34,590 nt of DNA, from contig JYFJ02004121.1 of assembly GCA_000934665.2 (NCBI GenBank), positions 1-34,590 on the forward strand, read 5' to 3'. How positions within the stretch are numbered: position 1 is the first letter of the stretch; each line of letters starts with the position of its first letter. A program made the translations under genes and the position numbers. Source of the stretch: Catajapyx aquilonaris. Lineage: Eukaryota. Below are positions 1 to 34,590 of the stretch, one piece after another. The notes beneath the pieces were generated by a model. It did not search any database. It was not told where the DNA came from and saw only the letters and a list, made by a program, of their open reading frames with translations.

Positions 1-98
1 GCAGCGATGCTCCGATGGTGCTCTCCCAAATAGAGGTGCCCAATCTGCCTCTCCGTCGCCGCTTTAGCCGCCTGGTCCGCCAACTCGTTGCCGAGTGG
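1..98 (-). pseudogene. Non-LTR retrotransposon RNase H C-terminal fragment (continues off window start)
   Basis: Minus-strand translation PLGNELADQAAKAATERQ matches the GNExAD.xAK motif that ends RNase H domains of I/R1-group elements; not in the ORF track. Confidence 0.75.
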
Positions 99-123
99 AA
101 GTCACGTAACCAACCTTACCTAG

Positions 124-399
124 TGAATCACATGCAACATTATGGACAAAGCCAGAGTTCCTGCACTTGACTCGTATGGAAGGACCTGATGGAAGGCATG
201 AAGAGGAGGCCTGTGGGAAAGAGGGAAGGGAAGGGCATCAATCCCCCAACCATCAAGAGATCCCTTGCGGGATACTGGCGGGGACAACGTGAGGGTAGCA
301 GTTGGGAAGAAGACCCATGGGCCTGTTTGTCGCCATCGTTCAAGATGACTAGACGTCCTCGTTCCTGCCTGGGTGATTGCTCAAAGAATGAATCACATG
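124..399 (+). mobile_element. Short retroposon-like insertion (135-388) with 11-bp target-site duplication
   Basis: TGAATCACATG at 124-134 and 389-399 brackets a 254-bp GC-richer segment ending in AAAGAA; family and orientation uncertain. Confidence 0.5.
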
Positions 400-730
400 G
401 GTAATTTGCATGGGCTGGTTGGTCATGTTTCTTCTGTATCTGTGTCGATTTATGTCTGCAACTTGGAGGTTCTAAGATTCAGAGGTTCTGGGCAATTTCA
501 ATATTTTGGGCTATTTCCATCTGAAAGATGCAATGGGCAGATCACCAAACTGTTTTGTAGTTGCAATGCTAATAAATGCAGTAACTTGCAAATTGCAACA
601 TAGCATTGCTATACTTGCCATGTGGAAAGCACTAGTTTACCCTGTAAGAATCTGAAAAATTCATTGTGTAATAATTATTATTGGTGCAGGGATTATAAAT
701 TTTATATCAACATCAAAGTGGTCAACAACA

Positions 731-870
731 TAGTGGTGGGTAGGGATTCCGCTAACTGCTAATAGCGGAGCTAACTTTTCAGTTAGCTGATTAGCATTTT
801 CGCTAACTTTGTGTACCGTTAGCGACCCAGTTATCTTCCTCTAAAAACTCAATGTAAGTCCGTTAACTGA
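731..870. mobile_element. Probable DNA-transposon (hAT-like) terminal region
   Basis: Dense cluster of GCTAAC/GTTAGC/TTAGC motifs in both orientations after TAGTGGTGGG, like hAT subterminal repeat arrays; no partner end found. Confidence 0.4.
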
Positions 871-904
871 TGCCAACAGAGGCCAAGAGAGCCACCCTCT
901 CAGA

Positions 905-1180: not shown

Positions 1181-1935
1181 TAGAATTTTCACTGGTTTAG
1201 CCTAGTTGCAGCCACCATTTGAGACAGCCAGATGTTTTTCAAGGAATTTTTAGACCTTGACACAGGCAGGAAATTGGTTCTCTCTTGTCTGGATGATGGC
1301 CTCCAATTGTTGCAGGACAAGTTATGTCCTTACCCTGCACGTACAACTGAACCAGACAGCAGTGGCAGAGGCAAGGCTGGCACCAATTTATGTGTATGAT
1401 CAGTGAACTACAAGCAATTCTATGGAGTACGTGTGACAGTTCATTGTTGGTTCATTAGAAAGTGACTCCAATCGAGGTGTATTAATGCTGTAATTTATGT
1501 GTCAATTCCTGTCTGCCTCTCAGAGGTTCCAAGGTTGTTCAGAGGCCCTGGGTTGGTCCATTTCTGTACAAAAGAGGCAATAGCCAGTCCACCCATTTTA
1601 CAGTTGCAATACTAGTAAGTGCAACAAGTTCAAAGTTGGGGAATAAGCAATTGAAGACATTGGTGCAATAAGTCCTTAAGTCCATTGAAGTGAGTTTGGA
1701 GATATTCAACAAAAACTGTTTATCTTGGTTCATGACAATCTAAGGACAACTAAAATTTTGTATGTCATAACAGCCCCTATTACCTTCACAACTGGATATG
1801 TTTGACCGATTTCAAAAAAGTAATGGTTTTGCAAAAAAATTAAATAGGAAGTGGAGTTACCTTGTTATTGCACAAAAATTTTGTTTCATACACCACAAAG
1901 CTTTATTGAATCTTGCCACACACCTTACAGCTTCC

Positions 1936-4468
1936 TTACACATCATCCTCAGCATCTGAGTCATCACTCTCATTCTCATCTTTCGAATTGACAAGTTCTT
2001 GGTAGTACCACATGTCACATTCTGGTACATACTTTTGCGCCAACTTCATGACATCTGCATATTTATTTACATTCAGGGGCAAGGGCCCATTGTAGGCCCG
2101 CACAGGTTGTATGTCACAGGGCTTGTGAATATTCCTCTCCAACACGAAATGGCAAGGAGGAACATCTCCTGAATGTGATTCAGACACATACACCTCATGA
2201 TGATGGCTCGAACTCATTTCAAATCTTTTGTATTTTGAAATAGCAAACACCTCTTTCCTGCTGTTCTTAATGGTTTTTTTAAAGAAAGGAGCCAGAGATG
2301 ACTTGTAATCCAAAATCATATCTTGCGTCACTCTTTCAACTACAAACTTTTTGCATGCCTTTGAAACCAGTTTAAACCACTCACTAGGTGTGTACAATTT
2401 ATCTTTTTTGCGCTTTTCCTTTTCTATGAGACCAAAAGACCTGTCGCATGGCAGATAACTGTGACCTCTTTCAGCACAAATATGTTGTCAAAACGACTTT
2501 TCTTCACTTCCTGAAAGAGATACTGGAGCACAGTGCTATTCTTATTTTGTGCAGCACAGTTGTCACAAAATATGTATAGGTCTCGTACGGAACTGCTCAC
2601 GTGATGATGTAGGAAGTGATTCAAAAATGAAACAGACTCATTGGGAGCCTTGTGACCAACAGTCTCGTCAAACATGTACATGATAGATTTTCCTGACTTG
2701 CCAGAGCAGAAGCACTGGTTGTATACCCAGAGTTGTCGAGCATAGAACACTTCAGTTGTTGTTAGTAGTGGCACTGGTAAATTTTGCTGATAATCAAAGG
2801 ATATGCATTCCACCCTATCATCAACTTTGCTCAATGCCAACTTGGCCTTAAGATCAGTGTAAAAAGACTCAGCTTTACGCAAATGAATCTTCCTCTCTAA
2901 CTCTATGGCATTTTTTTCCACATCAGAAATGTCAGAGTCCAGTTTCTTTTCATACACATCACAATTCATGCAAGTGTCACTGCGTGGCTTTCCAAAGCTG
3001 TATTTAAAATGTGTGATAAAATACCTGTAGTAGAAGTCATATGACACTACAGGCTTAATAGTTTTTCCACATTGCTGTAGCAAGTACTGGTCTGGCTCAT
3101 GCTTCTCCAGGTACAAACTGTACATCTTATTAATGCTGAGCTCTCAGCTCAGATACTTCACCTTCAGGTTTTTTGCTCTGCTATAATGAGAGGTTCTAAC
3201 TGGAAATCCCCTGATGTGGGAATCTATTTGAGCCTGTATGGAGTCTTCTATCTTGTTAGGACGATTGGTGTGTTTGCCACGTTGATCCAAGGGGCTTGCA
3301 ATGTTTTTTTGATGCATACTTAGTCAGACGCTCCACTCTTCCCGCACCAATGCCATGCAGATGGCAGAACGCCACCTTGCATACAATGACCTGCTTTGTG
3401 CCCCCCGATGGTATCTCCACCTCATCGTGGTGGTGGGGTTTGCGTTTCTCCCGTGACCCCAAGAGCTATGCCGGCGGTAGCTTCGTCTACTGGTAGGGCC
3501 TCCCAAGCCGGACAGGTCTTTGGGATAGGAGACAGACTAAGAGAGATACCAGTCTTTCCTCTCTTCTTTTTCCTCTTCGTTTCTCTCTCCATCTGTCCCA
3601 CCTTTGCTTCTTCTACAGCCAGATAGCCACAGTTGCTTTGGCTTCTTCCTAATAAACCAAACCAAACCTGCTTTGTGGAGAGTCTCATCTAAAAAGAGTT
3701 GGAAAATTACATGTGTTAAATAGCTAAATATATTGTACTGCTCTTGTTTTAGCACAGTACCATTTTTGCTATGTTAGGCCTACATCATAGGCTACCTACC
3801 TCATAGTGGTAACTGGCAACTCTCTGGCATCTCTCAGATGTTCCTGTCTCCTCAGCAGTCCCACCTCCATTAGCTGGAATCTTGCAAGGTCTCCGCCTAA
3901 TGACAGACAGCAAAATAATACCCACAAGAAAATAACGAGACAATATTACTTATGGTCCAAGCATATATTTTTACCTCGCAACAGGTGATGCTCTGATCAA
4001 TCCCGTAAGATAGGCATCTTGCACGTTCTTCTCCGCCAGTTTGTTGAATGTCTCGATTATGTCCTTTTTTTCTTCTCCCGAGAACTTGGTCATGCATTTC
4101 CTCCGACAGTTGCAAGGAGATCCCGTTTTCCTCCTGGGCTGCAGCTTTCCGGTGGTGCTGACATACTCTCTTCCACATGCGATGTTCTTTTTGCGAACGT
4201 TTCTTTCCCACTTCCTCTGTTGCCTCACCCGCTTCTTCCCCTTTCCTGCTGAGGAGGACTCGTCACTTGAAGTGTCGGTATCATCTGGTGGATGGTACTC
4301 TTCATCCATGTCTGTTACACTGCTCAGATCACGCGAGCTAGTACTTTGGCGCAAGAACCAGGTAACTCCTGGAATTACCAGGTTATTGCCCCAAACAACC
4401 TGCTGTTGTAAGTGAATCCTTGCGCCACGAAGTGGAGAACTGTGGTAGTTGCATTGTTCTTGCACCAA
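1936..4468 (-). pseudogene. Sola1-type DDD transposase gene, intron-containing, frameshifted and SINE-interrupted
   Basis: Motifs CxCRRKC, VCKVAFCHLHGI, FPVRTSHYSR, FGKPRSDTCMNCD, SFDYQQNLPVP, FYARQLWVYN, CDNCAAQNKN, GHSYLPCDRSFGLIE, YTPSEW. GT-AG introns 3897-3974 and 3689-3799 join PVAR-RRPCK...YHYE-MRLSTKQV in frame. Frameshifts near 3305 and 2470; minus-strand AATAAA at 1901-1906. Confidence 0.8.
3401..3665 (+). mobile_element. Chimeric non-autonomous retroposon (SINE): RTE-like structured 5' head plus I-group-like 3' hairpin, AATAAA and (CCAAA)n tail
   Basis: Perfect 12-bp TSD ACCTGCTTTGTG at 3389-3400 and 3666-3677. Removing the insert restores the transposase codons KQV-IVCK. Head closed by TGGTATCTC (3409-3417) / GAGATACCA (3543-3551); AATAAA at 3651-3656, then CCAAACCAA. 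Confidence 0.85.
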
Positions 4469-5064
4469 AGTGTGCCCTGTACCACATAGATGGCGTAGGT
4501 GGTCTTAACTAAATTTGTCCCAAAATTGGAGTTAAGGACTTCTTGCACCAATGTCTTCAATTGCTACAGCACCCTTATTGTTTGTCGTTGTTTGACCTTC
4601 CATCCTTCACCATGTAGGAATACACCTGCGCAGAGAGAGACTACAGGTAATATTAACCCCTGATTTCTCTGCAAGAGTTCAAGTTCTTCAATGGAAGACT
4701 TGGTGTTTGTTTGTATCCTTTTATTTAGTCCAGGGTCGGCCTGCGGCTCGTGCCGCTTGGCCAACCTACAATTTTTTGCTAAACCTAGTTACACCAGCAC
4801 ACATAATACACTACTACAATACCATACAACACTACAATTTGGAGGACTTGGTGTATAGCGAATTTATATCATGCAACTGTGGTACTATACAGTAATAGAG
4901 AAGACAGAACATGCCATTAAAATTGTGCACATCGTCCCCTAGATTCTGAGGTGGCTTTCTTAACCAAGGGTTAGTTGAAAATCAACGAAATGCAAAGTAA
5001 TCTCCAATGCATGTTGTTGGCTTCTAATAGTTGATCAAGGATGTAGAGCACTCCTCAAAAAAGA

Positions 5065-5701: not shown

Positions 5702-5810
5702 CTACGACTCGAACGCTGCCTTGAGGTCAACGAATAGTGCATATAGTTTCTCCCTCTTCTTACTGAGTCTATGCTGCACCAATGAGTTCAGTATAAATTG
5801 ACCAATCTTG
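5702..5810 (-). pseudogene. Non-LTR reverse transcriptase fragment
   Basis: FILNSLVQHRLSKKREKLYALFVDLKAAF matches the FVDL.KAFD RT subdomain 3 of non-LTR elements. Confidence 0.75.
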
Positions 5811-7081: not shown

Positions 7082-7385
7082 TTACAATAGTACGTCTAAT
7101 TCATGGGCTGAGAGATGCTGCATGATGGTGGTGGCCAGGGCTGGGGCCGTCACATCTTCCACATGTACGAACTCAATGAAATCCTTCCGGATCACTGTCT
7201 TCTCAGAAGAATCGTCCACGTGTGGAACGCATAAGGCTAGCTGTCCATGTCTACAAACGTCTTGTGTTTCATCGGCAAGCACAGTAAAGAATCCTGCTTT
7301 TTTATTATTCTTTTGACATGTTCATCTTGAATCACATTGCCGCATATCTCGATCAATTCATTTTGAATTTGATTATTCAGATCCT
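7082..7385 (-). pseudogene. hAT (ZMYM1/DUF4371-type) transposase fragment
   Basis: QIQNELIEICGNVI, then after a frameshift GFFTVLADETQDVCRHGQLALCV...IRKDFIEF: the first catalytic Asp region of hAT transposases. Confidence 0.8.
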
Positions 7386-8454: not shown

Positions 8455-10666
8455 TTATACTTTATTAAAAAGCGTCATAACGCTCTTGGGCACATTCTTC
8501 ACAGAATTTTTTTTTAACACGCAAGTGTCAAAGAAAATCAACGTTTTCTTGGTACTCTGGTTGTAGGAGATCCCAAATACCCAGTATAATGAAAACCAGA
8601 GGATTATAGCCGTAATCCCATTCTTCACTTGCAGAATTTCCACCCCATCTAAGTAGAGTGTGTAGATGCTGTCCATGTCAAAGATGGTGGTGTGAGTGGA
8701 AACTGTCATGGCCGGATAAGGCGATGTGGGCTGCATAGTCGCCAGTACTTTTTCATACAAGCAGAGAGGGATCATCATCAAGTTGAAGAACGCCTCATTT
8801 TCTGAAATGTTGAAAAATGACTAAGTGATAATAATCAATGGATAAAACAAACTGTACCATCTGTTGCTACGGTCACTTCATATGCTTGTTTTAGGGGATG
8901 TGACCGTAACTTCAACTTGGCACTTGATGCCAATCCAGCCCCATGCCGTCGCAGAAAATCAATGAGTCTTGAGGGTGGTGATCCCGTAGATCCCGGCTTC
9001 TTCCAGCAGCTCGAATATATTGCATGAGAAATCAGGGGTTTAGCGATATACATCTTATAGTAAGAAAGGCATAATACAAACGACTGATGACATTATAAAA
9101 TAGTTCATACCTGTTCCTCCATCTTCAGCGCCGGGTACTTCTGCAGTACATCTTTTACCGAGTTTTCCCGCATGAACTGGGTCCTGGAGAAGCGTGTCCT
9201 GGCCATTTTGTCTTTGACAATCTTCATGTCAGGCACTCGAGATTGGCACTGTTCTGTCATCACCTTCTCATGATGTGCCAGGGTGCTGGCATCTTCAGCC
9301 TGAATTGCATCCTAAAATGAATTACGATCAGAAATTGCCAACCAGTAACAACTGAAATATGCACTGCATGCAAATATGCACTGCATGCACGTATAAAAGT
9401 AGAAACAAATGTCTCACTTCTACAGGTGCCTTATAACGAGCTTCTAGAACAAGTGGCTCGTTATCCGGCAAAGCCTCCTTCGTCTTCTTCCCCCCATGCT
9501 TTTGTCTGATCACTTCCATCTCCTCATTCGCAACAAGCTGGCAATGGCGGCTTCGAAATTTTTTGAATTTGTCTTGTAGGCTCTTGCGCCACAGTGCCTA
9601 TAATAGTTTCATGGTATGAAGTACATAGAGAGACACTCAAGTGCAAAGGATCTAATGACCAACAGTGCATGATTCAAAATAGAACTTGCGTGTGGTTTTG
9701 CATTTAGGAATGGTTTCCCTTTCAAATGTGGGTACCTGTCTACAAGCTTTTCACTTGCCTGTTCGTACATTCTTGCAGATGGGTAGCTATGGAAGAGGTA
9801 ATAGCATATGTATTTAGTTTGCTTATACTGTATAATGTCGTTCACTGAAATTATTTTAGCAATCTATTGTGCCAGAAATCTATGGCATACATGGAAATAA
9901 TAGAAACTGAAGGGGTGGTCACTACTGCTGGAAAAGCGCATACAGAGCAGTTTCTGAGCATGCAGTGTTGAAGCCTTAATGCTCACATGTCGTATCTGAC
10001 CAAGTCATCGAACAACGTCTCAATAATTTTGAGACGGCACTTCCCATTCCTGCTGTCAGGGTGTCTCTTATCGAGCAGGTCTTGCACCCAGTCTGGAAAT
10101 TGCGGCAGCCCATAAATCCTGGGGAAATCATCTCTGAAAGGTACAACATTTCAAATATAGACATATGTAAGAATTTGATGTCACATATGGACAAGATCTA
10201 TAACATACTATAGTATTTTAACAGTGACATGTATTGGCTTACTTTGTCAACTTATCACCAACTGCTCCAGTCGCTTTCAGTACTGGTAGTCGAAGTGATG
10301 CCTCGGGTAGGGTGATGATGTCCCTGTTATCAGCCTCATTTGTGTCCCTCACATCAACTGTCCTATAATTTATGACAGAAATATTGTCAAGAAAGAAAAA
10401 AATCATGTGTCCACAGTCAAGCATTCACTTACTTCACGATGATATCTAACTTTCCGGCATCTGCTGGAATGTCATCTTCCGCACCCAGTTCGACATCAAT
10501 CCAATCTCCGAAGCCCTTGTGCCATGATTGGAGGATGATGTCAGGTGCTGCAATGTTGAGGCTGAAGCGTGATGCAATGGCTTCCTTCAGGCTCCGAATT
10601 GAGTGCGTCCCTTCAAGGTCAAGGCCCTTTTTCGACGTGCCATGTGTCACATGAAAGGTCCTCTTA
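8455..10666 (-). CDS. Spliced SAMD3-like protein (EnSpm/CACTA accessory gene), 8 exons, about 506 codons, start exon not found
   Basis: Exons 10666-10433, 10362-10243, 10133-9987, 9786-9690, 9597-9418, 9311-9111, 9053-8858, 8801-8455 join in phase with no internal stop (one GC-AG intron). Motifs YPS..Y...L..RYPHL, WRKSLQDKFKKFR, VLQKYPAL, FSLYWVFGISY...KKTLIFF. Confidence 0.7.
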
Positions 10667-11795
10667 CTAACAGCATGTAGAAGTGTTACACAATATTTCT
10701 CACTCAGAACAATATAATCACACAATGCGCATCCGGCCCTTTGATGAAGAAACCTGTCACGTCTACATATTGGCAACCATGGTGGTTATTATAATATTGC
10801 TATGGCCACTAAGGGTTTGATGTGTTTGTATGACACATGACAACCCGCATCTGCAGCACCAAGTGCATTAACAAAAATGTTCCTTTCTGATCACTCTCGA
10901 TCAAAAAATGTGCACTTATTTCATTGACACCCTGTAGGACTGTAGATACAGGTAAAGATGCTGTTCGTGCCATCCTTTAATGGAAATCGTCATTTGTGGC
11001 ACTCAATACATTTGCATTTTGGAGGGTTATGTAAAAATCAACTGAGCTTCATTTTTCAGTGTATAATACAGTAGTGTACGTACAACTCGACAAAGTCGAT
11101 CCTTGAGCAGATCCCTTAAAGTTAGTTAAAACTTTGGCATTTTGAATCACTTCTGGCACCCAAGTTCTTACCCCATCATGCAACCCATGCACACTCGATT
11201 CTTCTCACCTGATTAGGCCCATCTTCTTCCTCCCCCTCCCTGGCTGGAGGAAGCAGTGCCTGCCCGATGCCTCCCTCGGTCCTCCTCTGCTGCTGCCGCC
11301 CCACTGAGGCCACCTTCCTGGCCAGAGACCCAGAGTTGCCCTCCTCCTCCTCCTCTTCAACCTCCTGTGGCTCCTCCTTGACTAGCCTGACCCCATGGGC
11401 GCCTGACCTCCGTGGCCCTCTTCAACCTCCTCTGGCTCCTCCTTCACCAGCCTGACGCCTTCACTCCCTCCTCCACAAACCCATTGCTTTGTGGAAAGCG
11501 TGGGCTTGAAGTGGTGTGCTTGAATCCGAGCTCTTCGGCGAACCTTGTAAATTTGGACTCTTCTTCTGGTTAGAATTGTGTACCGTTGTCTGAGCGGACC
11601 TCGTCCGGTATCCCATGCCTGGAAAAGGTTTCTTTGCAGGCGCGAATGATGGCATCTGATGAGAGGCTTGTTAACTTGGTGACCTCAGGGAAACGGGAAT
11701 AGTAAGCCCTTAGAGCGGGTTGGGCGTAATGGGCTGCCATTGTCGGATGAGGCGGGCCGAAGCCGGCTCAACGGCAACGAATTCATGTGAGTCAT

Positions 11796-19645: not shown

Positions 19646-19654
19646 GGTAGGTCA

Positions 19655-20749: not shown

Positions 20750-22474
20750 GTCCTTGCACAGCACGCAAGTGGGCACCCCACTCTTGTACTGGCATTGCCA
20801 GGACCCGTGCGCCCCGGCACAGAAGCCACACCGAGGTGCGGCCCGGCACGGGCGGCCCCTGTTGGATTGGGCCGAGTGCCCGAAGGCACTGCATCGGAAG
20901 CATCGGTCCGGGATCGCTTCCACCCGGCAGGAGACCAGGTCCACGACCAGGCTCCCTTCGGAGGTCAACGCGAGGTACAGGGCTGGCGACAGCTCCAGCC
21001 GCCAATTCACCCTCGTCCCCTTCTGGCAAGGCCGCGACGACACCGCCCGAAGGTGGCTCGCCAACGGCAAGAAGAGGGCAAAGCTGCAGCAGAGCCGCAA
21101 CAAGGGAATCTGGCGTGTGGCCCGGGCGCACGCCAGTCAGGAGAGCGGGTGTGAAACCACCCCTCTGGCTGGTACGAACTTTAACACCCTCGTGGGAGGA
21201 TAGGGCCACCTCCATCGCCTCCCTCTGAGCCGCCGACCGGCTCGCGACCCGGTAACCAGTTCCGTCCTTTCCGATGGCCCGAAAGCCGCCCTCCAGGACC
21301 TGGCTGGGCAACGCGGCCCGCAACACCTCCGTCGCGCCCACCACATCCGTGGCTTCAGCTATGGAAATGGAGCAGACGTGCCCCTGGCTGGGAAGGCCTC
21401 CTCTAGGGAGGGGACCTCCGCCAGTGCGCGCTCCTCGTACGGTGGTGGCGGCGTCGATGGATCCGCCGCCACCTTCTGCAGGGGGCCCCTCTTTGGGGCC
21501 GCCTTCTTTGGGCGTCCAGCCTAGGCCGTCACCGTAGCGAACGAGGCCCCTGGCGCATCGGGCACTCGCCCGGCGCGTCCGCCCTCGCCCGCCACAGTAG
21601 CAGCCTCGGTCCTGTCGGTCGCCGTCGCCTTCCCCGACAGGAGCCGGCGTGCCTTCTCCTTCTCGAGGGCCACCTCAGCTTTGGCCTGTAGGGCCTCCGC
21701 CTTGGCCACCCTCGCGTCACTAGCCTCGAGCTCCCGCGCTCGCTCCAGCCGCTCGGTTCGGCAGACCAGTAGCGTGACCAGTTCCCTGACCTGGGTCACC
21801 GCCTGCCGCACGTCGGCCTGGTCCCCCTTCGTCACTGATATCTTGCTATGGTGCTCCTTGGACACCGCAGCCAGGATGATCTCCAGGTTACGGTTGAGGT
21901 CCAAAAGAGTCTCTGCAAGACCCAGGCTTTCCTTGACAGCCCCGGGGGACCCTGCGTCCCCCTGGGTATCGGGTGCTCTTGGCGATTGGTCCGAAGACCT
22001 CGCTCCATGACCGCGGCTCTTAGACCGGGCACCGTTTCCAGCCTTCTGGGCCGTCGTGTCCGCGCGCCGCTGGCGGAGCCCCTCCCTCTCGGACTCCGCC
22101 TCACTCCCACCTGCCGACGCACTGTGTCCATCCTTCACTTCGCCCTCCAATAAGGGTCCCGTGACACTCTCTGCGGCCTGCTGCGCTCCGGACCCGTCAC
22201 TGCCACTCGACTCTACGACGGCACCTCTGGCAGCACTTCGCACTGGTCGCTTTCGTCCGCCCACCACCGAATCAGAGTCCGTGCCGCTCTTCCGGTCCTC
22301 GGTGGCGTCGATCGCCAGTTTCTTCTTCCGTTGCCGCGCCCGTAGCGCCCTGGCTTCCGCTAGCTCTGCATCTGCTTTCGCGGCCGCCTTCTTGGCCGTC
22401 CGCGCCTTCGTCACCTTCGCCATGAGTCTCCTGCGCCTGAGCTCATAGGCCGACTCGTCCTGCCTTTGGCGCAT
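20750..22474 (-). pseudogene. ORF1 (Gag-like nucleic-acid-binding protein) of the non-LTR element
   Basis: Basic/coiled-coil N-terminus, ASFATV motif, then RCFRCSAFGH...CGFCAGAHGSWQC...CVLCK zinc knuckles; broken by stops and frameshifts. Confidence 0.85.
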
Positions 22475-23136
22475 GGCGACAGCCCTGCAATCGATAGAGT
22501 GTTAGTGCGTTGCTTAAGAGAGGCCCTTGCGGCCGCGCACAGGTCTCCAATCTTCTTACTGCCCGCTGGAGAGGAGCCGGGGCGCACCCCGTCGTCGGTC
22601 AAAAGCGTGGAGATGCGCAAAATGACCCGGCAAATCCCACCACGGGGTTTTGGTACCGGCACACACCTGTGCGCCGTCACCGCAGTGCAATGGGCCTCCG
22701 CTGGAAAAAACCTTTCCCAGTGCACGGGACACCTGGTGAGGTGTACCCTGTGAGGTGCCCGGTGCACTTGAAGAGTGGCCGCAACAAGCACGGACCAGCT
22801 CCCCTACCCCGGCTGTTTCCCTAGGGAACCCGGACCTCGCCTAGGCTCAAACGAGGCCCAAGAACCCGTGGGAATCCTCCTCTAGCGCACCCGATTTGGC
22901 TCTACTGTAGACCACTCATTTGCGTGCTTGACCGCAGGAAGAACGGTCAAGCAGGTTCAGCCCTGCAGGGGTATTGCACCCCGGGAGCTATCTAGCTTTA
23001 CGTCAGGGACCTCCCCGGGCTTTTACCCGACACACGGCGCCCAGAGGTGTCTCGCCAGTGGAAGGAACCCGGAGACTCCCGTCCGACCGGAGTATCCGCT
23101 CACCCTGTCAGGTGAGTGGCAACCCAATGCTGTACA

Positions 23137-23481
23137 ATTGGCACATCGTCATTGTCCTCGCAAGATCTGGTCCGCCATCAGCATCCTGATCGTCAATCTG
23201 GGGGAAAAGAATGCGATGACGCCATTTTGTCATAAACCCATAACGCTTTGTCATACACGTACCTGGCCCAAACGGTGCAAGTCCGTCATTACGTAATACA
23301 TGGTGAAAGCGGTTGTCATCGTGTAGAGAAGTGTCACCCACAGAATTCTCCATTCCAACGCGTCAATACACGCCGGGTCCAGCCATACCAAACTGGCCGA
23401 ATACAAAATTGTGGGGATCTGCCAGAGACATTGAGTCTCGAACCATGTCTGGATGGCAGACAGAGTGAGCCCCATCGGTGT
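23137..23481 (-). other. Exon-like segments of an unidentified spliced gene; the downstream exon is split by the non-LTR insertion
   Basis: Exon 23481-23263 (TTTTATAG / CAG|GTACGT, 73 open codons), 65-bp intron, then an exon from 23197 that resumes at 16702 and ends at CAG|GTAATT (16626). Confidence 0.35.
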
Positions 23482-25161: not shown

Positions 25162-25832
25162 TACGTATCTTTGGACTATCTCCCAGTTTTATGTCCTTCT
25201 TTGATGAGAATGGTAGAGCTACTGAAGCATCTGTAGCTGGCAAAGTGCAACCATGCGATATGTTCAGCCGTGTTCAGCACACGTGGTCTTGTGAACGAGT
25301 TTAGGCCTACTCACCAGTCATTCTGCTCTTCTGGGCGACCTCTTCCCATGCACGCTCCTTGGCGTCGGTGTTCCGGTACTCGCGAGTACGGACGTCCCAA
25401 ATAATGGGCTTCTCTCGGATGTAATGGACAAAATCCTCGTCCGATGATGCAGACACCATTGCTGCAGCCATCTTTTTTTCTGACCAAGGAACAGGCAAGG
25501 TGAGGTGGGGTCGCGGGGATGGGGTGGGCAACATGGCGAGACAGGTCTCGACCAATCGTGGAGGCAGCGTAGGACGTAGCGAAGTACCAGAGCCTAGCTG
25601 CGCTCCCAAGATTTCCACCCAAATTTTTGGTTTCAAGTAGGCCCTCCGGGCTCAGCGCGGCGCCACGAGCTCCAGTGTGACAGGGCCGGCGAAGGAAAGT
25701 TGGCTCGCTGGGGCCCGCGCAAGCGGCGCAGCGTGTGTATGACAGACCCATAAGTCAATACGTATCTTAGGACTATCTACCAGTAATTTTTGCTTCTTTT
25801 ATGAGAAGGGTAGTGCTACTGAAACCTGCAGC
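25162..25832. repeat. Imperfect ~75-bp direct repeats (about 25162-25237 and 25760-25832) flanking the MADF segment
   Basis: TACGTATCTT.GGACTATCT.CCAGT...ATGAGAA.GGTAG.GCTACTGAA in both; minus translations SVALPFSSKKDIKLGDSPKIR and SVALPFS*KKQKLLVDSPKIR. Confidence 0.7.
25315..25752 (-). mobile_element. Harbinger-type 5' fragment with first exon of a MADF-domain gene (25471-25315)
   Basis: MAAAMVSASSDEDFVHYIREKPIIWDVRTREYRNTDAKERAWEEVAQ (MADF P.IWD...Y.N......AW) ending at G|GTGAGT; upstream GGCCCTGTCACACTG resembles Harbinger TIR starts. Confidence 0.7.
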
Positions 25833-26385: not shown

Positions 26386-26389
26386 ATCC

Positions 26390-27050
26390 GTCCCTCTTCT
26401 CCATGGACACACCCCTTGGACTTGTTCTCATTTTGGCAGGGGTTGCGTCTGCTCTACATGACAAAAAATCCAGATCCACAAAACCACTGCCATCATCAGA
26501 CCTTTGGATCATCGTGGTCCGCCTCCCCCTCTCAACTTTCACAGCCACTACATCATGTAAATACACTCTAGGAGTAACACTTGACACTTTTTTTTTGTGA
26601 CGTATGGTCCGGCCAGTCATAAAATTCCGACACGGACATCTTTTTGACTGAAACTTTTCCAGAATTGGCAGCAGCGACAGCCTTCACAAATTGGTCACAG
26701 TCACACACCTTACCCATTTTCTTCATGGACAGCTCCACCCGGTGGTGGAAACTGTCCGCTGACATGAAGGTGTGGGCGGGCTCAAAGTATCTTTGTTCTA
26801 TGATCTCAGCAGACACCGCACTGGAGTTCACAATATGCACCAGATAAGTGAAAAGACACCAGTTTTTATTCTGTCCGCTGCAGTTGTCCAGCCACAGAAT
26901 CAACCTCTTTCCCCCCCCTTTACGGACAAGAAGAAACAATTAAACGCACATGATATCTTCTTCTTCCTGCCCGCAATTGCTTCGTGCCAATCGCAGCATA
27001 CGGCGTAATGCCTGATGTATTGCCGACTGGCATAGATGCTAGGTTATCGT
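26390..27050 (-). pseudogene. Second Sola1-type transposase fragment (different subfamily)
   Basis: WHEAIAGR, LILWLDNCSGQNKNWCLF, YFEPAHTFMSADSFHHRVE, PRGVSMEKRD in shifting frames. Confidence 0.8.
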
Positions 27051-27538: not shown

Positions 27539-28260
27539 TCACGTGTCCCGGCTGGCCTGTGGTGCTGCCTGGACCTGTTCGCCGTGCTGCCGACTTGGAC
27601 AGATTTGACGGTTCACGAAGCGATCCACCAAAGCAGCTGACAAGGTTTTCATTCTTTGTTGGACCCGTGCTTTGTCCTGGGGATCCGGAATATGATTCCA
27701 TTCCTGTTGCATCTGTTGTCTTAGGGCACGAGCACCATCTACATGTGCGTTATAAAGCAATGAAGTCCAGCAGATGCTAGCTTGTCTACAAAGAGCTTCG
27801 CCAATAGACCGTACCTCTGGGCCTAACTCATGGAGGTGTGGCAGAATCTGGTAGGGGTGTGGTGCCATGCAGTAAAGAGGCTGAAGTGCCGCCACACTCA
27901 TATCCATATCATCAATCATGTTGATGTAATGTAAATACTTCTCAAATAAATAAAACAGTCTCTCCTCTGCTGTATTGCCCTTAGGCTGAACTTGTCGTCC
28001 CTTAAACTTTGGGGTGGCCATTAACTCACGGTAAGGCTCCAGGAGATCCAAAAACGGTATCTCAATTTTTTCAAGAACTGCTGCAGGTTGGAACAAAGAG
28101 ACGTCTTTTTCACAAAAGGCCCTCTGTAAATATGTATGTTGCGATTGACCATCTTGGCCAGCATAATTATGCCATATTTGTATTAGAACCTGAAGCTTGA
28201 GGATTAGGTAGATGAAATCCAGTCTGGTCTGAAGAATTGGTGCCTGCCGGGCACCATGTC
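27539..28260 (-). other. Unassigned open frame of about 240 codons
   Basis: ORF 27539-28096 extends upstream without a stop through RLDFIYLILKLQVLIQIWHNY; no family recognised. Confidence 0.35.
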
Positions 28261-28342
28261 TGACCCGTATCGGGTTACGAGAAACAAAACAGGGAACTTG
28301 GCTAATGTACGATTTATGTCATTGCGGAGGGTTCAGAATACA

Positions 28343-28581
28343 TGTCACGCTAAAGGAGTAACTAGGCGAGGAAAGTTTTGGGGTGGGATCTGGACAGGGA
28401 GACGGCTCAGTAACTACTGGCCACGAGCCCAAGGGAGCGCCTCCCTATAAAGGGGTAGCGCAATGCGAGATGGGAGTCGGAGCGACAAAAGGTCACATGA
28501 CAGGAGTATGGATTAGATAACCAATGGGGTACAAGACGGGGAGGCAAAATTGTGCAATCCCGTTACAGTGGTGGCCGCGGT
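28343..28581 (+). mobile_element. 5' LTR of an LTR retrotransposon (28343-28567) with tRNA-Leu-like primer-binding site
   Basis: TGTCACG...CGTTACA termini and TATAAAA at 28446; TGGTGGCCGCGGT at 28569-28581 is 12/13 identical to TGGTGGCAGCGGT, the complement of the tRNA-Leu 3' end. Internal region missing. Confidence 0.6.
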
Positions 28582-29560
28582 TTCACTCACCTCCTCCAGG
28601 ACAGTCTGGAAGAGCTCCCACACCTCAGATGGTTCTGCAGGATATCCAGGAGCAGAGGCAGGTGATCGTGAATGGGGGTGCGGCCATCGGTGGTCAGGAT
28701 GTCATCCAACGATAGTGGGGTGTAGCCATCCCCATCGCTGTCCACCTCCCCCTGATCCTCACTGTCCTCCTGCTCACTGCCCTCCTGCTCACTGTCCGAC
28801 AGTCCGCTTCCATCCTCCGATGGTCGACTAGGCAGAGGAGAGTCGGCAGGAACAATCAGCTGGTCGTCGGGCGAAGGATGAAGTGCAGAGGGGGAGGTGG
28901 GACCGACCTGGGAGAGAGGGAGAGAAGAGTCAGTTGTCAGGTTGGTTGTCAGAAGAGCCAGTGAATGGAACAGAGGTGCAGGTAATGGTGGGGAAGGGTT
29001 AGGATCAGGGGTGTGGGGAGGGCCAAGCGTGTGGGAATTGTTGTCATCCTGTTGCTGTGAGGAGCTGCGCCCGACTGCAAGCTGCTGGCGGCTCGCTGGG
29101 ATGGGTAGTCCACATCGGGGATATGGGGCTCCTTTTGCATCACGCCTCGTTCGCTGAACATGCCAGCGAAGGTGATTCCTCAATGCAGTGCAGCTGGGAA
29201 AGCTCAGAACACATGAGGGGCAGGGATAAGGGGTGTTGGCATGCGGCTGAAGCCAGACGACAAGCTGCTGGGGACACTCGTAGTAGTGCGTGGATTGGCG
29301 CCGGTGAAGGGATTTCCAGCATAATGGAATATGCAGAGGAATNNNNNGGGGGGATAGGGGCTGGGGGAGGAAATGGGTGAGTTCCAGGTGGCGTTTGAGC
29401 GAATGTTTCCCAGCCGTCCTCGGTTCACATCTGAAGGACGTATCACAGCCAGACTCAGTACATAGGATCACCTCCGGAGGGGGGAAGAAGATCTTGATGG
29501 TGTTTCCGGTACGTTCAGGTTGTCTAGTATAGGCCATCGTTGTAGGGGGCCCTCCCTCGT
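28582..29560 (-). pseudogene. Utopia/NeSL-like (R2-superfamily) non-LTR element, N-terminal zinc-finger region only
   Basis: GNTIKIFFPPPEVILCTESGCDTSF...KHSLKRHLELTH and YPCPSCVLSFPSCTALRNHLRWH, followed by a Pro/Ser/acidic linker. Confidence 0.65.
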
Positions 29561-29599
29561 CAGAATGTGATCCAGATTCTGGGATGGGACTATGGCACA

Positions 29600-29860
29600 C
29601 CTCCTGCAGGACCACAGTAGGGTCCTCCTCGGCAGGATAACTCACAAAGATCATCAGTCATGAAGACGTCAGGGTGACCCTTGCCAAAAATGGCACCCTC
29701 AGGAAGGCATTCTTTCAGGAGGCTTAATACTTCCATGAAAACCCCAGTTGTCTCACAATCAGTAGGGACACTTCCTAGGGGAACCTCTCCGGCTGGTGTA
29801 GGAGTTACGAACATAAAGACACGGTTGCCTTCCCGATCCATGTGGCCTGATGTATTCACC
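29600..29860 (-). pseudogene. MULE (MuDR) transposase catalytic-domain fragment
   Basis: TSGHMDREGNRVFMFVTPTPAGEVPLG...LSLLKECLPEGAIFGKGHPDVFMTDD. Confidence 0.8.
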
Positions 29861-30565: not shown

Positions 30566-31912
30566 TCCACCGCAAGTACGCCCCCGCTGCTGTGAAATGG
30601 ACCAGGGGCTCCCCTTCCTCTTTCTCTGTGACGCCAGGTTCTAGATGGTTCACACCTACGTCACGGAGGAGAGTACGGACAGTACTGTACTGTGCCGGAC
30701 CTGGTTCGGGCTTCCGCCAACCGTTCGGCTGGGGAGAGGGAACACCTTTGCTTTAGTGTGCGTATACGCATCACTGTTAATCTGAGATTGACAGGACATG
30801 TACTGAGTAGTATGATTTTGTGGATCATCACAACCTATGGTTGCGGACATTGTTGTATATAATCTCCTAACGGGAATTTTTTCAGCAGTCAGGCTGGGGT
30901 TTAACTGGTTCACACATTTCCGTTTAGCTGCAATTTTTTCAGCAGACGCTTGTTTTCCTATGACGCCAAGGTTTCTGCCCCCCCCCCCCCCCNCCCCCCC
31001 CCTCCGAAACTTTGTGACCTTGAACCCCCAAAAAGGTGCTTTTGCAGCGACTCTTCATTCAGCAAAAGAAAAATGCAACTGCAGAGCATTGACAGCACTT
31101 GGTGTTCCAGTACAGCAGTCACTGGTGAAGGCAGGTGCAGGACTGATCAGATCTTCAATTGCAGCAAAAGGCAAACCTGCAGCCAGAGAGGTACTGACAC
31201 ATCTGATTTGGTAGTGTAGACTTTCCGGACGATCGCTGCGATAAGACCCTTCCTAGGAGTTAGGATCGCTTCTACAGTTTGTTTATCTTCCAAGATAGCG
31301 GCGTGCAGCCGGCGCGGTGGGATGGATTCGTGGGAACCGCTACGCCAGGAGGCGGGGACACGCATAGGGGCCTAAGTTACTTAAATGAGAGCCGCAGTTG
31401 TGTCTCAACCAGACCTGTTGATTCGGTCCAATTAACGGATCGGGAGCAGGCCTACCGCTGGGAGGCGCTGCCGAGTGCTACTGGCCATTGATCAAACCTG
31501 CCCCAAGTACTGTGTAGACAATTATCATTGTTTATTTTTAGAGCTAATGGCCTAGCTCTTCAAAATCTGGCGATCGTCGGGGCATACAGCTATCAAGACC
31601 CATATCGTGAAAAAGGAGACATCGCCAGAAGCAGAGGACTTTCGCTCCAGGATGATCGAAATTAATCCGCACACAGTTCTAATTATTATTCAACACTTGT
31701 TACATAAGTATGCAACATGAATTACATTACACTTGTTACCAAACTTGGCAACTGAATTTACATATTAGTGTGCGGTTGTCGTGTGGAAATGGGAAGGTGG
31801 GCACTGCCCACTTTCCTGGGCAACTAGGCAAAGGGGAAGCTTGCCCCTCCACCGCAAGTATGCCCCTGCTGACTGTGAAATGGACCAATGGCTCCACTTC
31901 CTCTTCCTCTGT
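30566..31912 (-). repeat. Two diverged copies (30566-30629 and 31848-31912) of an unidentified coding-like segment
   Basis: TCCACCGCAAGTA.GCCCC.GCTG(A)CTGTGAAATGGACCA..GGCTCC.CTTCCTCTT.CTCTGT shared; translations TEKEEGEPLVHFT and TEEEEVEPLVHFT. Confidence 0.75.
31215..31575 (+). mobile_element. Possible LTR (31215-31562) with PBS-like TGGCGATC
   Basis: TGTAG...CTTCA ends, TACTTAAA near 31378, AGAGCTA/TAGCTCT hairpin near the end, TGGCGATC 5 nt downstream. Confidence 0.35.
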
Positions 31913-32164
31913 CGCTGGCCGGTATGCTGTTCCTGCCTGGGTGGTGCCCATCTTTGGATGTGGAGGCGGGAGGTCCTTACCAGCGATGTCTTTCGGCGTG
32001 GCCTTGCGGATGTAAAGAAAGGCACATCGTCTGACATATGCAAAAGCAGGCATATCCAAAAATGGATCAGAAACTATTCAAAGTACAAAAGGTGTCATAA
32101 ACTCGATTGAAAATTGGGAAATTTATGGGGCAAGTTGTGAAGTACTTATAAGTAACTCGCTGCC

Positions 32165-32850
32165 GTGCACGGCTTGGATTTCTTCCTCATACTTGCACCC
32201 AAAGTTCTCGCTGAAATCTACATGGCTGAGTATAGCATCCGTAGACAAATTTTTCTTTAACTATGTCATGCACTGGTACTGGTGTATTATGTTTGCAACA
32301 TGGGTCATGTACTTACGATACTTTGCCAAACAATCTTCCAATTTCTGACCAAGATATCCAATTGTGCGTACGGTCTCCTGTTTCATGGGAGTGCGCGATT
32401 TTGTGGATGTCTTCTCTGCACTGACTGTCATTACTGGTGTTCTTTGCCACTGTTTGAGTCGTGTTTCATCATCATAGTCCATGTGCTCACCTGGATACAC
32501 GACAGTCACATGTTTGCACTTGGGGTATTTTCGGAAGCAGCAATCGACAGCCTTTCCCTCACAGCATAACACATCTAACATATCCTTCGGGTTTTGCAAA
32601 GGAACAACATTCAGTTCATGAAACTTTTCAATCAGGAGTTCCATATTCGCAGGCTGAACATATTTGCAAGTAACTATCGGTTACAGTTGGCATCACCACT
32701 CAACATGGCCTCATACGGCAGAATGTTGCATAGGAAATAGCGTATGGGACAGTGCTCTGGAACTTCTTGTGCAAATTCAGCATGGAATCACTTAGCAGCC
32801 TTTTTTGCCTTTACTTTCCTCTTACAAGGGACACTTTGAAAGTGTCACTC
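32165..32850 (-). pseudogene. Sola2-type transposase fragment
   Basis: ISYATFCRMRP, NMELL, LCCEG..DCCFRK, HVANIIHQY, HVDFSENFGCKYEEEIQAVH (DFSENY..Y..E.Q..H motif). Confidence 0.75.
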
Positions 32851-33777
32851 CCCGATTTCATTAAAATTCGGGGCATTTGTAGCCCACCCCATGGGGTGAA
32901 AAACGCACCTGAAGTGACCAGCTCAAAATGACCATGTGACCACATTTTGAGGGATACAGGGGTCAACTCGTACAATTCCGAAAACTGCTTTTTGACGGTG
33001 TCTTAAAGTATACTAAATTTAATACGAAGTCATGAGCTGGTGCACCAGTACACTTTAAGATGTGACAAGGTTCGAATAATGTCTTTCAACACATCAAGGG
33101 TGATGGCATCACATCTCTCCAGCACCAGATGAGGAAATATCATGAAATGTTCAAAAATATCAGGCAGTTTATACGCAGAATGTACTGACAACCAAAACGA
33201 AAGGCATTGAGAGGTCTTTTTTTTTGGTAGGGTAACACTTCAGGATGGTGTGAAACCTGTCACAAGTTGTAAGCAACACATTTATCACAAAAGTCGATAA
33301 ATCCATATATCGTTTGCTTATGTTTGTTTTGATGAACAAATCGTTTGTTTCGGAATGGATCCTTTGTTTTAAAAGAAAACACTGGGTGCGGCTAACTTCA
33401 ATCAGCCCGACCAATTCACTAAGCTGGTTTATGTGCTTCCGCAGTACTTTGGGGAAAATATCTTGGTTGCCCTTCTGTGGGAGCAACATAAGATACCCTG
33501 CCCATACTCCTTTGATCGGGGAAGTGTTTCTATAGACGCATCGAACAGGGAACAGCATGTTAAAGTCGAAGCCCATTGTGTTGGCTGTGGGAAGAATACT
33601 TCACGAGCCAGTGCAGGGTGAGGGTGTTACTCTGGAGTGGCGAGCTGAAGACACAGTTCAGGCATCGGCAGCGGTATATCGTCGACTGCAGTCAAATGAT
33701 CTTATGAGTGACGGGGGCGTGCAGCCACCCCAGCTGTACACGGATGACCTCTTCATACTGAAAATTTTCTTAGTAAA

Positions 33778-33933
33778 TTATCCTCCCGGATATTTATTTT
33801 CTTTATAGCATCCTCTTCTTGTGGAATTCTTTTTCATTATCAATTTGAATTTTCCTGAGCTCTATATCATAGCATGGCGCTCGTTGCTCTCCTCTGTGGC
33901 CGCCTCCAGCAGCAACCTCCTCTCCTTCACCTG
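33778..33933 (-). repeat. Second copy of the Harbinger Myb-gene 3' coding end (cf. 12700-12856)
   Basis: TTATCCTCCCGGATAT.TATTTTCTTTATAGCATCCTCTTCTTGTGGAATTCTTTTTCATTATCAATTTGAAT... near-identical for about 90 bp, then more diverged. Confidence 0.9.
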
Positions 33934-34590
33934 TGTAACGCCAGATGGGGCTTACTGTGGAGTGTGGTGACGTTACTGAGATTCTGGTTCGGGTTCCCGC
34001 CCTATGGTCAAGGGGGAGGTGGGAACTCGTTGCTGCTGCCGGGTGGGGGAGACCAACTTGCGCCGGTCTAGGTCAATCCCCATGGGTTGGCGGGAGGTGA
34101 AGGAGGCTAGCTCATGCCAGCCGATTAGCCGCATGATCGTTCGGGCTTTGGAGATTGTGGGCGAGCGTGCCTCTGAAGGCGAGGTCACGTGGGTCGTATC
34201 CGATTCGTTGTCTGCTCTGCAGGCCATCAGCAATCCCCGCGCGTATGACGACACAGTACGATATGCTCAGGAGCTTCTAAGGCTGGCCCGGGACAGGGTG
34301 AGTTTGTGTTGGGTGCGGGGACACGCCGGGGTCGTTGGCAACGAGCGTGCGGACTTGGAGGCCCGATTGGCTGCGGCAGGGCAGGTGGGTGTGGAGCGGA
34401 TTCCAATCACGAGGAAGGGCGCCCAGCGGCGAGGTGTTGAGGAGGCCGAGCGTATGTGGCAACGGGACTGGGACCGGGTGGGGAAGGCCTGGGGTCGGGA
34501 GTTCTTCCCTTTGGTCAGCACGGACAGACACGTTCATGGGCACATGGCGCGATTTGTTTCTGGCCACGGCCCATTTAATGAGTATTTCGC
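33934..34590 (+). pseudogene. R1/LOA-group non-LTR RNase H region related to the 16716-23123 element (runs off window)
   Basis: Frame from 34082: VSDSLSALQAISNP...CWVRGHAGVVGNERADLEAR...WQRDWD, then after a frameshift RHVHGHMARFVSGHGPF (cf. RHIHGHVARLVSGHGPY in the large element). Confidence 0.85.

What the first reader, a model, noticed from the sequence alone, without database searches (positions are those of the whole stretch)
1..34590. Extreme same-strand orientation of TE fragments: candidate uni-strand piRNA cluster built mainly from DNA transposons
Seen: 18 of 19 recognisable TE coding fragments (RNase H, piggyBac, Sola1 x2, RT, SAMD3-like x2, hAT, Harbinger x3, Mutator-like, R1-like, P x2, Utopia-like, MULE, Sola2) read on the minus strand; only the RNase H at 33934-34590 is plus. 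If orientations were independent and equally likely, P = 2x20/2^19, about 8e-5. Established: uni-strand piRNA clusters such as Drosophila flamenco hold TE fragments antisense to one long precursor. Inference: a plus-strand transcript would be antisense to more than ten TE superfamilies. Unlike LTR-dominated flamenco, this locus is mostly cut-and-paste transposase fragments. Some non-coding pieces (SINE, two LTRs) are plus-oriented, so the bias concerns coding sequence.
Basis: partly seen in the sequence, partly recalled or inferred. Interest (0 to 1): 0.85.

Follow-up and report, generated by a model that had tools for sequence, protein, structure and literature searches.

The report
Strand-biased transposon graveyard; piRNA role untested
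This 35-kb stretch of an animal genome is a pile of broken mobile-element genes that nearly all read on the same DNA strand, a layout seen in loci that make transposon-silencing small RNAs, but no RNA data could be found to test that role.

Summary
A symmetric Pfam scan covered all 264 ORFs of 60 aa or more. It hit 10 minus-strand and 2 plus-strand ORFs, and one of the plus hits looks like chance. Without any database, and outside the GC-rich LINE, the minus strand holds 17 ORFs of 120 aa or more against 5.8±2.1 in shuffles. The plus strand holds 9 against 7.3±2.6. Collapsed to separate elements the count is 6:1 on strict evidence, 10:1 on tool-supported evidence, and 16:1 with ORF-only and recalled-motif items. 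The matching P values are about 0.13, 0.012 and 3e-4, not 8e-5. The labels piggyBac, P, MULE, Harbinger transposase and Utopia found no Pfam support. A high-copy SINE-like retroposon and the terminal LINE are plus-oriented.

The piRNA reading could not be tested. No genome is held, no run on record as RNA holds the locus, and no small-RNA data were reachable. In the cichlid passages I read, intronic selection does not orient DNA transposons. A uni-strand piRNA source is therefore my leading reading at about 0.38. Chance in a neutral graveyard (about 0.32) and another long plus-strand transcript (about 0.2) stay close behind. Interest is moderate.

The parts
1..160 (-). RNase H remnant at the window edge
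   Evidence: The motif GNELADQ lies at 72-92 on minus. tblastx matches 39-95 (-) to 34334-34390 (+) at 47% over 19 aa. There is no Pfam hit. The motif meaning is recalled. The bin 1-567 has summed depth about 55x single copy.
1646..4565 (-). Near-intact DNA transposon with DUF7869 ORFs and 39-nt terminal inverted repeats (1646-1684 / 4527-4565)
   Evidence: The inverted repeat is 95% complementary. DUF7869 hits ORFs 2427-3143 (1.1e-5) and 1939-2487 (1.4e-3). The Atlas nearest clusters are DUF7869 families at 0.93. A near-identical second genomic copy is seen as a contig at 2x depth.
3389..3665 (+). High-copy SINE-like retroposon inserted into the DUF7869 element
   Evidence: Summed contig depth is about 1000x single copy. 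A contig joins 3388 directly to 3666. The tail AATAAACCAAACCAAACC sits at the right end, with a duplicated target of about 11 nt. An inverted 46-nt piece lies at 26340-26385. There is no Rfam match.
5711..5734 (-). Reverse-transcriptase motif remnant
   Evidence: FVDLKAAF is in a minus frame. There is no Pfam hit. Recognition is from memory.
7085..7321 (-). hAT-like (DUF4371) remnant
   Evidence: Pfam DUF4371 has E 0.009, below its cut-off. The motif LADETQD lies at 7259-7279, recalled.
8458..10785 (-).
   Evidence: ORF 8458-8820 has 15 homologues at E<=1e-3 among 1.84 billion representatives. All of them match only this ORF (alignment A1). 11 of the 15 were scanned and 0 have a Pfam family. 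ORF 10432-10785 had no hit in the same search. Joining the two ORFs into one unit is inference.
11498..11767 (-). Integrase core of an LTR-type retroelement
   Evidence: Pfam rve has E 6.3e-4 on the ORF and 4e-6 on the read-through frame. Both are below the curated cut-off.
12728..13966 (-). Myb/SANT-like (Myb_DNA-bind_5) gene remnant
   Evidence: Pfam gives E 2.8e-10, above the cut-off, in ORF 13697-13966. The adjoining minus ORFs are 13249-13680 and 12728-13063. Treating these as one unit is inference.
16900..23300 (-). GC-rich (65-71%) non-LTR retrotransposon, RT core missing
   Evidence: Exo_endo_phos_2 scores 1e-17 and RNase_H 2.6e-5. The ORF text shows CCHC, endonuclease and the start of RT, then RNase H in another frame. 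The 3' end bin is at about 170x depth.
25310..25651 (-). MADF DNA-binding domain remnant
   Evidence: Pfam MADF_DNA_bdg scores 3e-9 and 4.4e-8 on the read-through frame.
26571..26939 (-). Second DUF7869 transposase remnant
   Evidence: Pfam gives 1.6e-6, above the cut-off.
27542..29657 (-). Two long ORFs (259 and 356 aa) of unknown origin, one with a C2H2 finger
   Evidence: ORFs are listed. There were no homologues and no Atlas relative. AF2 gave pLDDT 44. The zf-C2H2_4 hit has E 4.6e-4.
32201..32680 (-). Transposase-like ORF with a DFSENF motif
   Evidence: ORF 32264-32680 is 139 aa. The motif lies at 32201-32218. There is no Pfam hit. Family assignment is recalled only.
33777..33933 (-). 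Second copy of the segment 12699-12856
   Evidence: Direct repeat, 89% over 158 nt. The first copy lies inside minus ORF 12728-13063.
33980..34588 (+). RNase H end of another LINE, the only supported plus-strand coding remnant
   Evidence: Pfam RNase_H scores 6.1e-6. It is 43% identical over 97 aa to the minus LINE at 19102-19392.
1..34590 (+). Hypothetical long plus-strand precursor transcript
   Evidence: Inferred only. No RNA evidence of any kind was obtained.

Best explanation
The window is a TE graveyard. It holds mostly old, low-copy remnants of at least ten unrelated mobile-element or TE-associated genes, plus two younger elements, with nested insertions and no recognisable host gene.

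The remnants are co-oriented because insertions were filtered by orientation relative to a long transcript read from the plus strand. The most likely such transcript is a uni-strand piRNA precursor. Antisense TE copies yield small RNAs complementary to TE mRNAs and are kept. Sense copies are useless or would terminate the precursor.

Shown: the co-orientation, the TE density, the nesting and the mixed ages.

Inferred: any transcription, its direction, and any small RNA.
For: - The strand bias is real by two independent routes. Pfam hit 10 minus and 2 plus ORFs among the 264 scanned. The ORF-length excess is on minus only (z 5.3-6.6 against 0.6-0.7). The longest ORF is on minus in 20 of 24 ORF islands.
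- The bias spans unrelated classes: DNA-transposon-like DUF7869 twice, hAT-like, an integrase, a LINE, and Myb/MADF genes. A single insertion mechanism is therefore unlikely.
- Both young elements are minus. The DUF7869 element has TIRs and a near-identical second copy. The LINE has CpG o/e of 0.8-0.95.
- In the cichlid passages I read, intronic DNA transposons show no significant orientation bias (PMC4353498). Ordinary intronic selection therefore explains this pattern poorly.
- In Drosophila, scanning genomes for strand-biased TE content found flam-like clusters that sRNA-seq then confirmed. Sense insertions there are tolerated toward the 3' end (PMC10643416 passages). This matches the lone plus LINE at the right edge.
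Against: - There is no RNA evidence at all.
- On strict evidence the count is only 6:1 (P 0.125).
- Most fragments are old and low copy, at 1.5-6x single-copy depth for >=80% likeness. piRNAs made from them would have few targets.
- A roughly 1000-copy retroposon sits in the opposite (plus) orientation.
- In flam-like clusters the bias is confined to Gypsy elements. Here it is class-wide, which is not the known pattern.
- Cichlid clusters tend to be dual-strand and depleted of DNA transposons and LINEs (PMC11753138).
- Poly(A)-signal hexamers are not depleted on the plus strand: 18 against 20.6+-4.2.
- Some units (Myb, MADF, C2H2, the 8458-10785 unit) may be gene remnants rather than TEs.
Confidence: 0.38

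Rival explanations
1. This is a neutral TE and pseudogene graveyard. The co-orientation is a chance extreme with no function. One window among very many was flagged because it looked unusual.
For: After collapsing to independent elements the support is modest: 6:1 strict (P 0.125) and 10:1 tool-supported (P 0.012), by my arithmetic. Most fragments are old, low copy and full of stops. No promoter, RNA or small-RNA evidence exists. Non-coding retroposon pieces lie in both orientations. Poly(A)-signal hexamers show no strand selection.
Against: The database-free tests are hard to get by chance. 0 of 300 shuffles reach the minus-strand ORF excess. 20 of 24 islands favour minus (P 0.0015). With ORF-only units the count is 16:1 (P 2.7e-4).
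Confidence: 0.32
2. The window lies inside a long intron or a long non-coding transcription unit read from the plus strand. Sense-oriented TE insertions were purged because of their splice and poly(A) signals.
For: [quoted passage not shown] The retroelement remnants here (LINE, integrase, RT, RNase H) are minus. No exon was recognised, which fits an intron.
Against: In cichlids, intronic DNA transposons show no significant orientation bias. Here the DNA-transposon-like remnants are all minus. No flanking exon is in view. Poly(A)-signal hexamers are not depleted on plus. The SINE-like insert is plus, although SINEs show a moderate sense bias in that paper.
Confidence: 0.2
3. The fragments are not independent. 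The array is part of one larger composite unit, for example a capturing element such as a Helitron, or a duplicated block. Its internal pieces would share orientation through the way they were acquired.
For: A faint DUF6570 hit (E 0.1) at 27101-27454; I recall this domain from Helitron proteins. Several long minus ORFs have no homologues. One 158-nt segment occurs twice in direct orientation, 21 kb apart.
Against: No Rep/helicase or other carrier gene was found by Pfam. Self-comparison shows almost no internal repetition. Most of 1-17000 is at single- to few-copy depth, so it is not a multi-copy composite. Nested insertions with target duplications and TIRs show separate events.
Confidence: 0.07

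Closest known systems
flamenco and flam-like uni-strand piRNA clusters of Drosophila (PMC10643416; passages read)
   Same: A TE-dense array with remnants arranged on one strand. Nested insertions of mixed age. A lone opposite-strand element at one end. Strand-biased TE content is the criterion used there for de novo detection.
   Different: Those loci span hundreds of kb. Their bias is driven exclusively by Gypsy-family LTR elements, and they have a mapped promoter and sRNA-seq support. Here there are 35 kb, a class-wide bias that includes DNA-transposon-like genes, and no RNA data.
Core uni-strand piRNA clusters of mosquitoes (bioRxiv 10.1101/2022.08.22.504762; search listing and start of abstract only)
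   Same: Uni-strand sources enriched for antisense-oriented foreign remnants outside Drosophila.
   Different: The enriched content there is non-retroviral endogenous viral elements. Nothing viral was seen here. I did not read the paper's text.
Teleost (cichlid) piRNA clusters (PMC11753138; passages read)
   Same: Intergenic, TE-overlapping loci, mostly shorter than 50 kb.
   Different: [quoted passage not shown] This is the opposite of the composition claimed for this window.
Antisense bias of TEs in introns (PMC3088655; PMC4353498; passages read)
   Same: Orientation filtering of TE insertions by a host transcript. It is strongest for LTR elements and LINEs.
   Different: It is not significant for intronic DNA transposons in cichlids, and it is statistical rather than near-absolute. 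No host exon is visible here.

Membership tests
Uni-strand (flamenco-like) piRNA cluster | Dense, uniquely mapping 24-31 nt small RNAs with a 1U bias and phasing from one strand | not testable with these tools
   No small-RNA data were reachable. The run search listed no holder on record as RNA.
Uni-strand (flamenco-like) piRNA cluster | A single long precursor transcript from a discrete promoter | not testable with these tools
   No genome or flanks are held and no RNA run was found. Any promoter would lie outside the window.
Uni-strand (flamenco-like) piRNA cluster | TE remnants predominantly antisense to the precursor | tested here: inconclusive
   Co-orientation is met: 10 minus and 2 plus Pfam-hit ORFs of 264, the ORF excess on minus only, and 20 of 24 islands. 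The direction of transcription is unknown, so 'antisense' is not shown.
Uni-strand (flamenco-like) piRNA cluster | A TE-dense, gene-poor array with nested insertions | tested here: met
   No non-TE-type Pfam family scored above its cut-off on either strand. A retroposon is nested in a TIR-bounded transposon.
Uni-strand (flamenco-like) piRNA cluster | Bias carried by the active TE class that the cluster controls (Gypsy in flam-like loci) | tested here: not met
   The bias is class-wide and most remnants are old and low copy. Only one weak integrase remnant is LTR-type.
Intron of a plus-strand host gene | Flanking exons on the plus strand | not testable with these tools
   The window holds no recognisable exon and the flanks are unavailable.
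Intron of a plus-strand host gene | Bias limited to LTR and LINE elements, with DNA transposons unbiased | tested here: not met
   The DUF7869 (twice) and hAT-like remnants are all minus. The expectation comes from PMC4353498 and was not measured in this genome.
Non-LTR retrotransposon (16.9-23.3 kb) | APE-type endonuclease, reverse transcriptase, and in some clades RNase H | tested here: inconclusive
Endonuclease scores 1e-17 and RNase H 2.6e-5. No RVT family was found. The ORF text shows only the start of RT, so this is an internally deleted copy.
   No such family appeared at E<=0.01 in the 264 ORFs of 60 aa or more. None appeared at E<=2 in the 102 minus ORFs outside the LINE. None appeared at E<=0.05 in 264 of the 348 ORFs of 35-59 aa, or in read-through minus frames of 1-11702 and 23301-34590. 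Degraded fragments can escape these models.

The most novel reading that the evidence does not exclude
A flamenco-style uni-strand piRNA source outside insects. It would retain antisense copies of every TE class, cut-and-paste DNA transposons included, and it would still be trapping active elements: the young DUF7869 transposon and the GC-rich LINE are both minus. Orientation-dependent trapping would then be a general design rather than a Gypsy-specific one.
Probability: 0.3. Interest if true: 0.65.

Novelty: new member of a known kind. Interest (0 to 1): 0.4.

Why it matters
If small RNAs confirm it, the locus would show that orientation-selected, single-strand piRNA sources are not limited to retrovirus-like elements in fly follicle cells. 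They could also police DNA transposons. Simple strand-bias scans of raw sequence could then nominate such loci in non-model genomes. If they do not confirm it, the window is a calibration case. It shows how far fragment counting overstates significance when pieces of one element are counted separately.

Tried and rejected
- Whole-genome comparison: no genome is held.
- Earlier scan notes: nothing found by place, relatives or words.
- Expression: the run search listed no RNA holder.
- Run X5, whose kind is not on record, holds zero-difference contig pieces at 1-267 and 5866-6065. I draw nothing from this.
- Rfam at gathering and at E<=1, and tRNA search: no match.
- Pfam on 264 of the 348 ORFs of 35-59 aa gave only sub-threshold non-TE hits, in 7 ORFs. 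The other 84 ORFs (16.9-23.6 kb and 31.8-34.6 kb) were not scanned.
- Pfam at E<=2 was run on the 102 minus ORFs only. The 97 plus ORFs were not rerun at that threshold.
- Read-through (stop=X) frames were scanned for the minus strand only. They added nothing beyond a better integrase score. They covered 1-11702 and 23301-34590.
- Word-seeded homologue searches of 27542-28318, 28590-29657 and the read-through 27542-31054: no hit at E<=1e-3.
- ESM Atlas on 27542-28318: best score 0.76, uninformative.
- AF2 of 27542-28318: pLDDT 44, so no fold search was made.
- The exhaustive search of read-through 7186-10785 hit only ORF 8458-8820. 11 of the 15 hits were scanned and have no Pfam family.
- PDB sequence search of three read-through minus frames: 0 matches at E<=1. 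It missed even the integrase, so it is insensitive here.
- Poly(A)-signal strand test: no signal.
- Base skews reflect the TE sense-strand composition and cannot show transcription.

Full report
WHAT THE WINDOW IS

The window is 34,590 bases with 7 N. GC is 41-53%, except for a block at 16.9-23.3 kb with 58-71% GC. CpG observed/expected is 0.2-0.8 outside that block and 0.77-0.99 inside it. There is no tRNA and no Rfam match, either at gathering thresholds or at E<=1. Self-comparison shows almost no internal repetition. It finds one 158-nt direct repeat (12699-12856 and 33777-33933, 89%), one 39-nt inverted pair (1646-1684 and 4527-4565, 95%), one 46-nt inverted pair (3627-3672 and 26340-26385), and a few short tandem units. 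No genome is held for the window. The scan's earlier notes are empty.

CHECK OF THE OBSERVATION, WITH DATABASES

I scanned every stop-to-stop ORF of 60 aa or more on both strands against Pfam at E<=0.01. There were 264 ORFs, 135 plus and 129 minus (scans). Twelve ORFs had a hit.

Ten were minus:
- DUF7869, twice in adjacent ORFs at 1939-3143, and once at 26571-26939
- DUF4371 at 7085-7321 (E 0.009)
- rve at 11573-11767 (6e-4)
- Myb_DNA-bind_5 at 13697-13966 (3e-10)
- Exo_endo_phos_2 at 19655-21136 (1e-17)
- RNase_H at 19234-20112 (3e-5)
- MADF at 25310-25651 (3e-9)
- a single C2H2 finger at 28590-29657

Two were plus:
- RNase_H at 33980-34588 (6e-6)
- a sub-threshold 2-ph_phosp hit that I take for chance

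Shorter ORFs of 35-59 aa gave only seven sub-threshold, non-TE hits (264 of 348 scanned). Looser thresholds on the 102 minus ORFs outside the LINE added only a faint DUF6570. Read-through minus frames sharpened the integrase to 4e-6 and added no family.

CHECK OF THE OBSERVATION, WITHOUT DATABASES

I worked outside the GC-rich block and compared against 300 shuffles that keep dinucleotides in 300-nt blocks.
- The minus strand carries 17 ORFs of 120 aa or more (2897 aa) against 5.8±2.1 (853±312). No shuffle reaches either figure.
- The plus strand carries 9 (1277 aa) against 7.3±2.6. 87 and 81 of 300 shuffles reach these figures.

This holds even though the minus strand is the purine-richer one and should meet more stop codons. 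Grouping overlapping ORFs into islands, the longest ORF is on minus in 20 of 24 islands at 100 aa or more, 17 of 21 at 110 aa or more, and 14 of 17 at 120 aa or more. The strand bias of coding remnants is therefore real.

HOW MANY INDEPENDENT EVENTS

They are not.
- 1646-4565 is one element bounded by 39-nt inverted repeats.
- 12728-13966 reads as one Myb/SANT-like gene remnant.
- 8458-10785 reads as one degenerate unit.

Counting elements gives three tiers:
- Strict (Pfam E<1e-3): six minus (two DUF7869 elements, integrase, Myb unit, LINE, MADF) against one plus. P is 0.125.
- Adding weaker tool support gives 10:1, P 0.012. The additions are the RNase H remnant at the left edge, DUF4371, ORF 8458-8820 with 15 homologues, and the second copy of the 12.7-kb segment.
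- Adding ORF-only units and motifs that I recognise only from memory gives 16:1, P 2.7e-4. The motifs are RT at 5711-5734, P-like at 24455-24475 and DFSENF at 32201-32218.

All P values are my arithmetic.

Supported labels are RNase H (both ends), a non-LTR element with endonuclease and RNase H, and a hAT-like remnant (weakly). No Pfam family supports piggyBac, P, MULE/Mutator, Harbinger transposase or Utopia. 'Sola' corresponds to DUF7869, a eukaryote-wide family by the Atlas, which I cannot assign to a superfamily.

ANATOMY AND AGE

Laying DNA contigs of three runs of one sample on 1-17000 gives a single-copy depth of about 30 in X1. Most bins sum to 1.5-6 times that at 80% likeness or more. 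The remnants are therefore old or low copy.

The exceptions are:
- 1-567 (about 55x)
- 11908-12474 (about 58x)
- the LINE 3' end at 16444-17000 (about 170x)
- a 277-nt insert at 3389-3665 (about 1000x)

That insert has an AATAAA-plus-short-repeat tail at its right end and a duplicated target. It is a plus-oriented SINE-like retroposon nested in the DUF7869 element. A contig at twice single-copy depth joins 3388 to 3666 directly, with 2-3 base differences per kb. A near-identical copy of the transposon without the insert therefore exists elsewhere, which marks this transposon as young.

The LINE is also young by its CpG content. It is internally deleted. Its ORF runs from a CCHC knuckle through the endonuclease to the first RT residues, and then RNase H follows in another frame.

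Two long minus ORFs of 259 and 356 aa at 27.5-29.7 kb have no detectable relatives and no confident fold.

WHAT COULD NOT BE TESTED

No run on record as RNA holds the locus. Neither a precursor nor small RNAs could be examined. The plus strand shows no depletion of poly(A)-signal hexamers. Base skews follow the TE sense strand and say nothing about transcription.

WEIGHING THE EXPLANATIONS (INFERENCE)

A bias across unrelated element classes argues for filtering after insertion rather than for an insertion preference. Filtering by a host transcript is known, but mainly for LTR elements and LINEs (PMC3088655). In cichlids, intronic DNA transposons show no significant bias (PMC4353498). In flam-like clusters antisense arrangement is strong and was used successfully as a search criterion. 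It is confined to Gypsy elements, however, and sense copies are tolerated toward the 3' end (PMC10643416). Cichlid clusters tend to be dual-strand and poor in DNA transposons (PMC11753138).

I took a small prior for an oriented uni-strand cluster among TE-dense windows (1-2%, my estimate). I used likelihoods of about 0.5 for a flam-like bias, 0.014 for an intron-like bias and 0.012 for chance, at 10 of 11. The piRNA reading and chance then come out roughly level, with the intron reading behind.

My figures are 0.38 for a uni-strand piRNA source, 0.32 for chance in a neutral graveyard, 0.2 for another long plus-strand transcript and 0.07 for a composite unit.

VERDICT

The strand bias is genuine, its significance was overstated, and many labels are unsupported. 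The interpretation cannot be decided with the data at hand. If true, it would be a new member, perhaps a variant, of a known kind of locus. Interest is moderate at 0.4.

PAPERS, AND WHAT I SAW OF EACH

- PMC11753138, PMC3088655, PMC4353498 and PMC10643416: passages found by term search only.
- bioRxiv 10.1101/2022.08.22.504762: search listing and start of abstract only.
- I read no supplements.

Noticed in passing
window 3389-3665 and 26340-26385: A SINE-like retroposon of about 1000 copies, with an AATAAA-plus-(CCAAA)-like tail and a target duplication of about 11 nt, is nested in the DUF7869 transposon. A second near-identical copy of that transposon elsewhere in the genome lacks it. An inverted 46-nt piece of the same repeat lies at 26.3 kb. 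It has no Rfam match.
   Followed up: partly
window 16900-23300: A LINE of 65-71% GC sits in a 43% GC background, with CpG o/e near 0.9. The reverse-transcriptase core is deleted, so the endonuclease is followed almost directly by RNase H. About 2.4 kb of GC-rich sequence with short internal repeats lies 3' of the coding part.
   Followed up: partly
window 8458-8820 (-): This 121-aa ORF belongs to a family of short predicted proteins (15 hits, 26-42% identity). They share a conserved block (YPH...DG...YW.FDI.YPK...L.FLD..VF.K.SV...V.TF.NKL) and have no Pfam family.
   Followed up: partly
window 27542-29657 (-): Two unusually long open frames (259 and 356 aa; the second has one C2H2 finger and a long acidic, Ser/Pro-rich tail) have no detectable homologues and no confident fold. 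They could be a lineage-specific gene or an uncatalogued TE protein.
   Followed up: partly
window 12699-12856 and 33777-33933: A 158-nt segment is repeated in direct orientation 21 kb apart (89%). The second copy abuts the plus-strand LINE exactly at 33934.
   Followed up: no
window 27206-27393: Tandem units of 72 and 51 nt (about 2 copies, 85% matches) lie in a 54% GC stretch just upstream of the long minus ORFs.
   Followed up: no
window 1-267 and 5866-6065: A small run of the same species label, whose kind is not on record (X5), holds contig pieces identical to these stretches. Its depths do not scale with DNA copy number across the bins. I did not interpret this.
   Followed up: no
window 29343-29347, 17417, 30993: N characters (a run of five and two singles) fall inside otherwise open minus frames. 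These are small assembly uncertainties.
   Followed up: no
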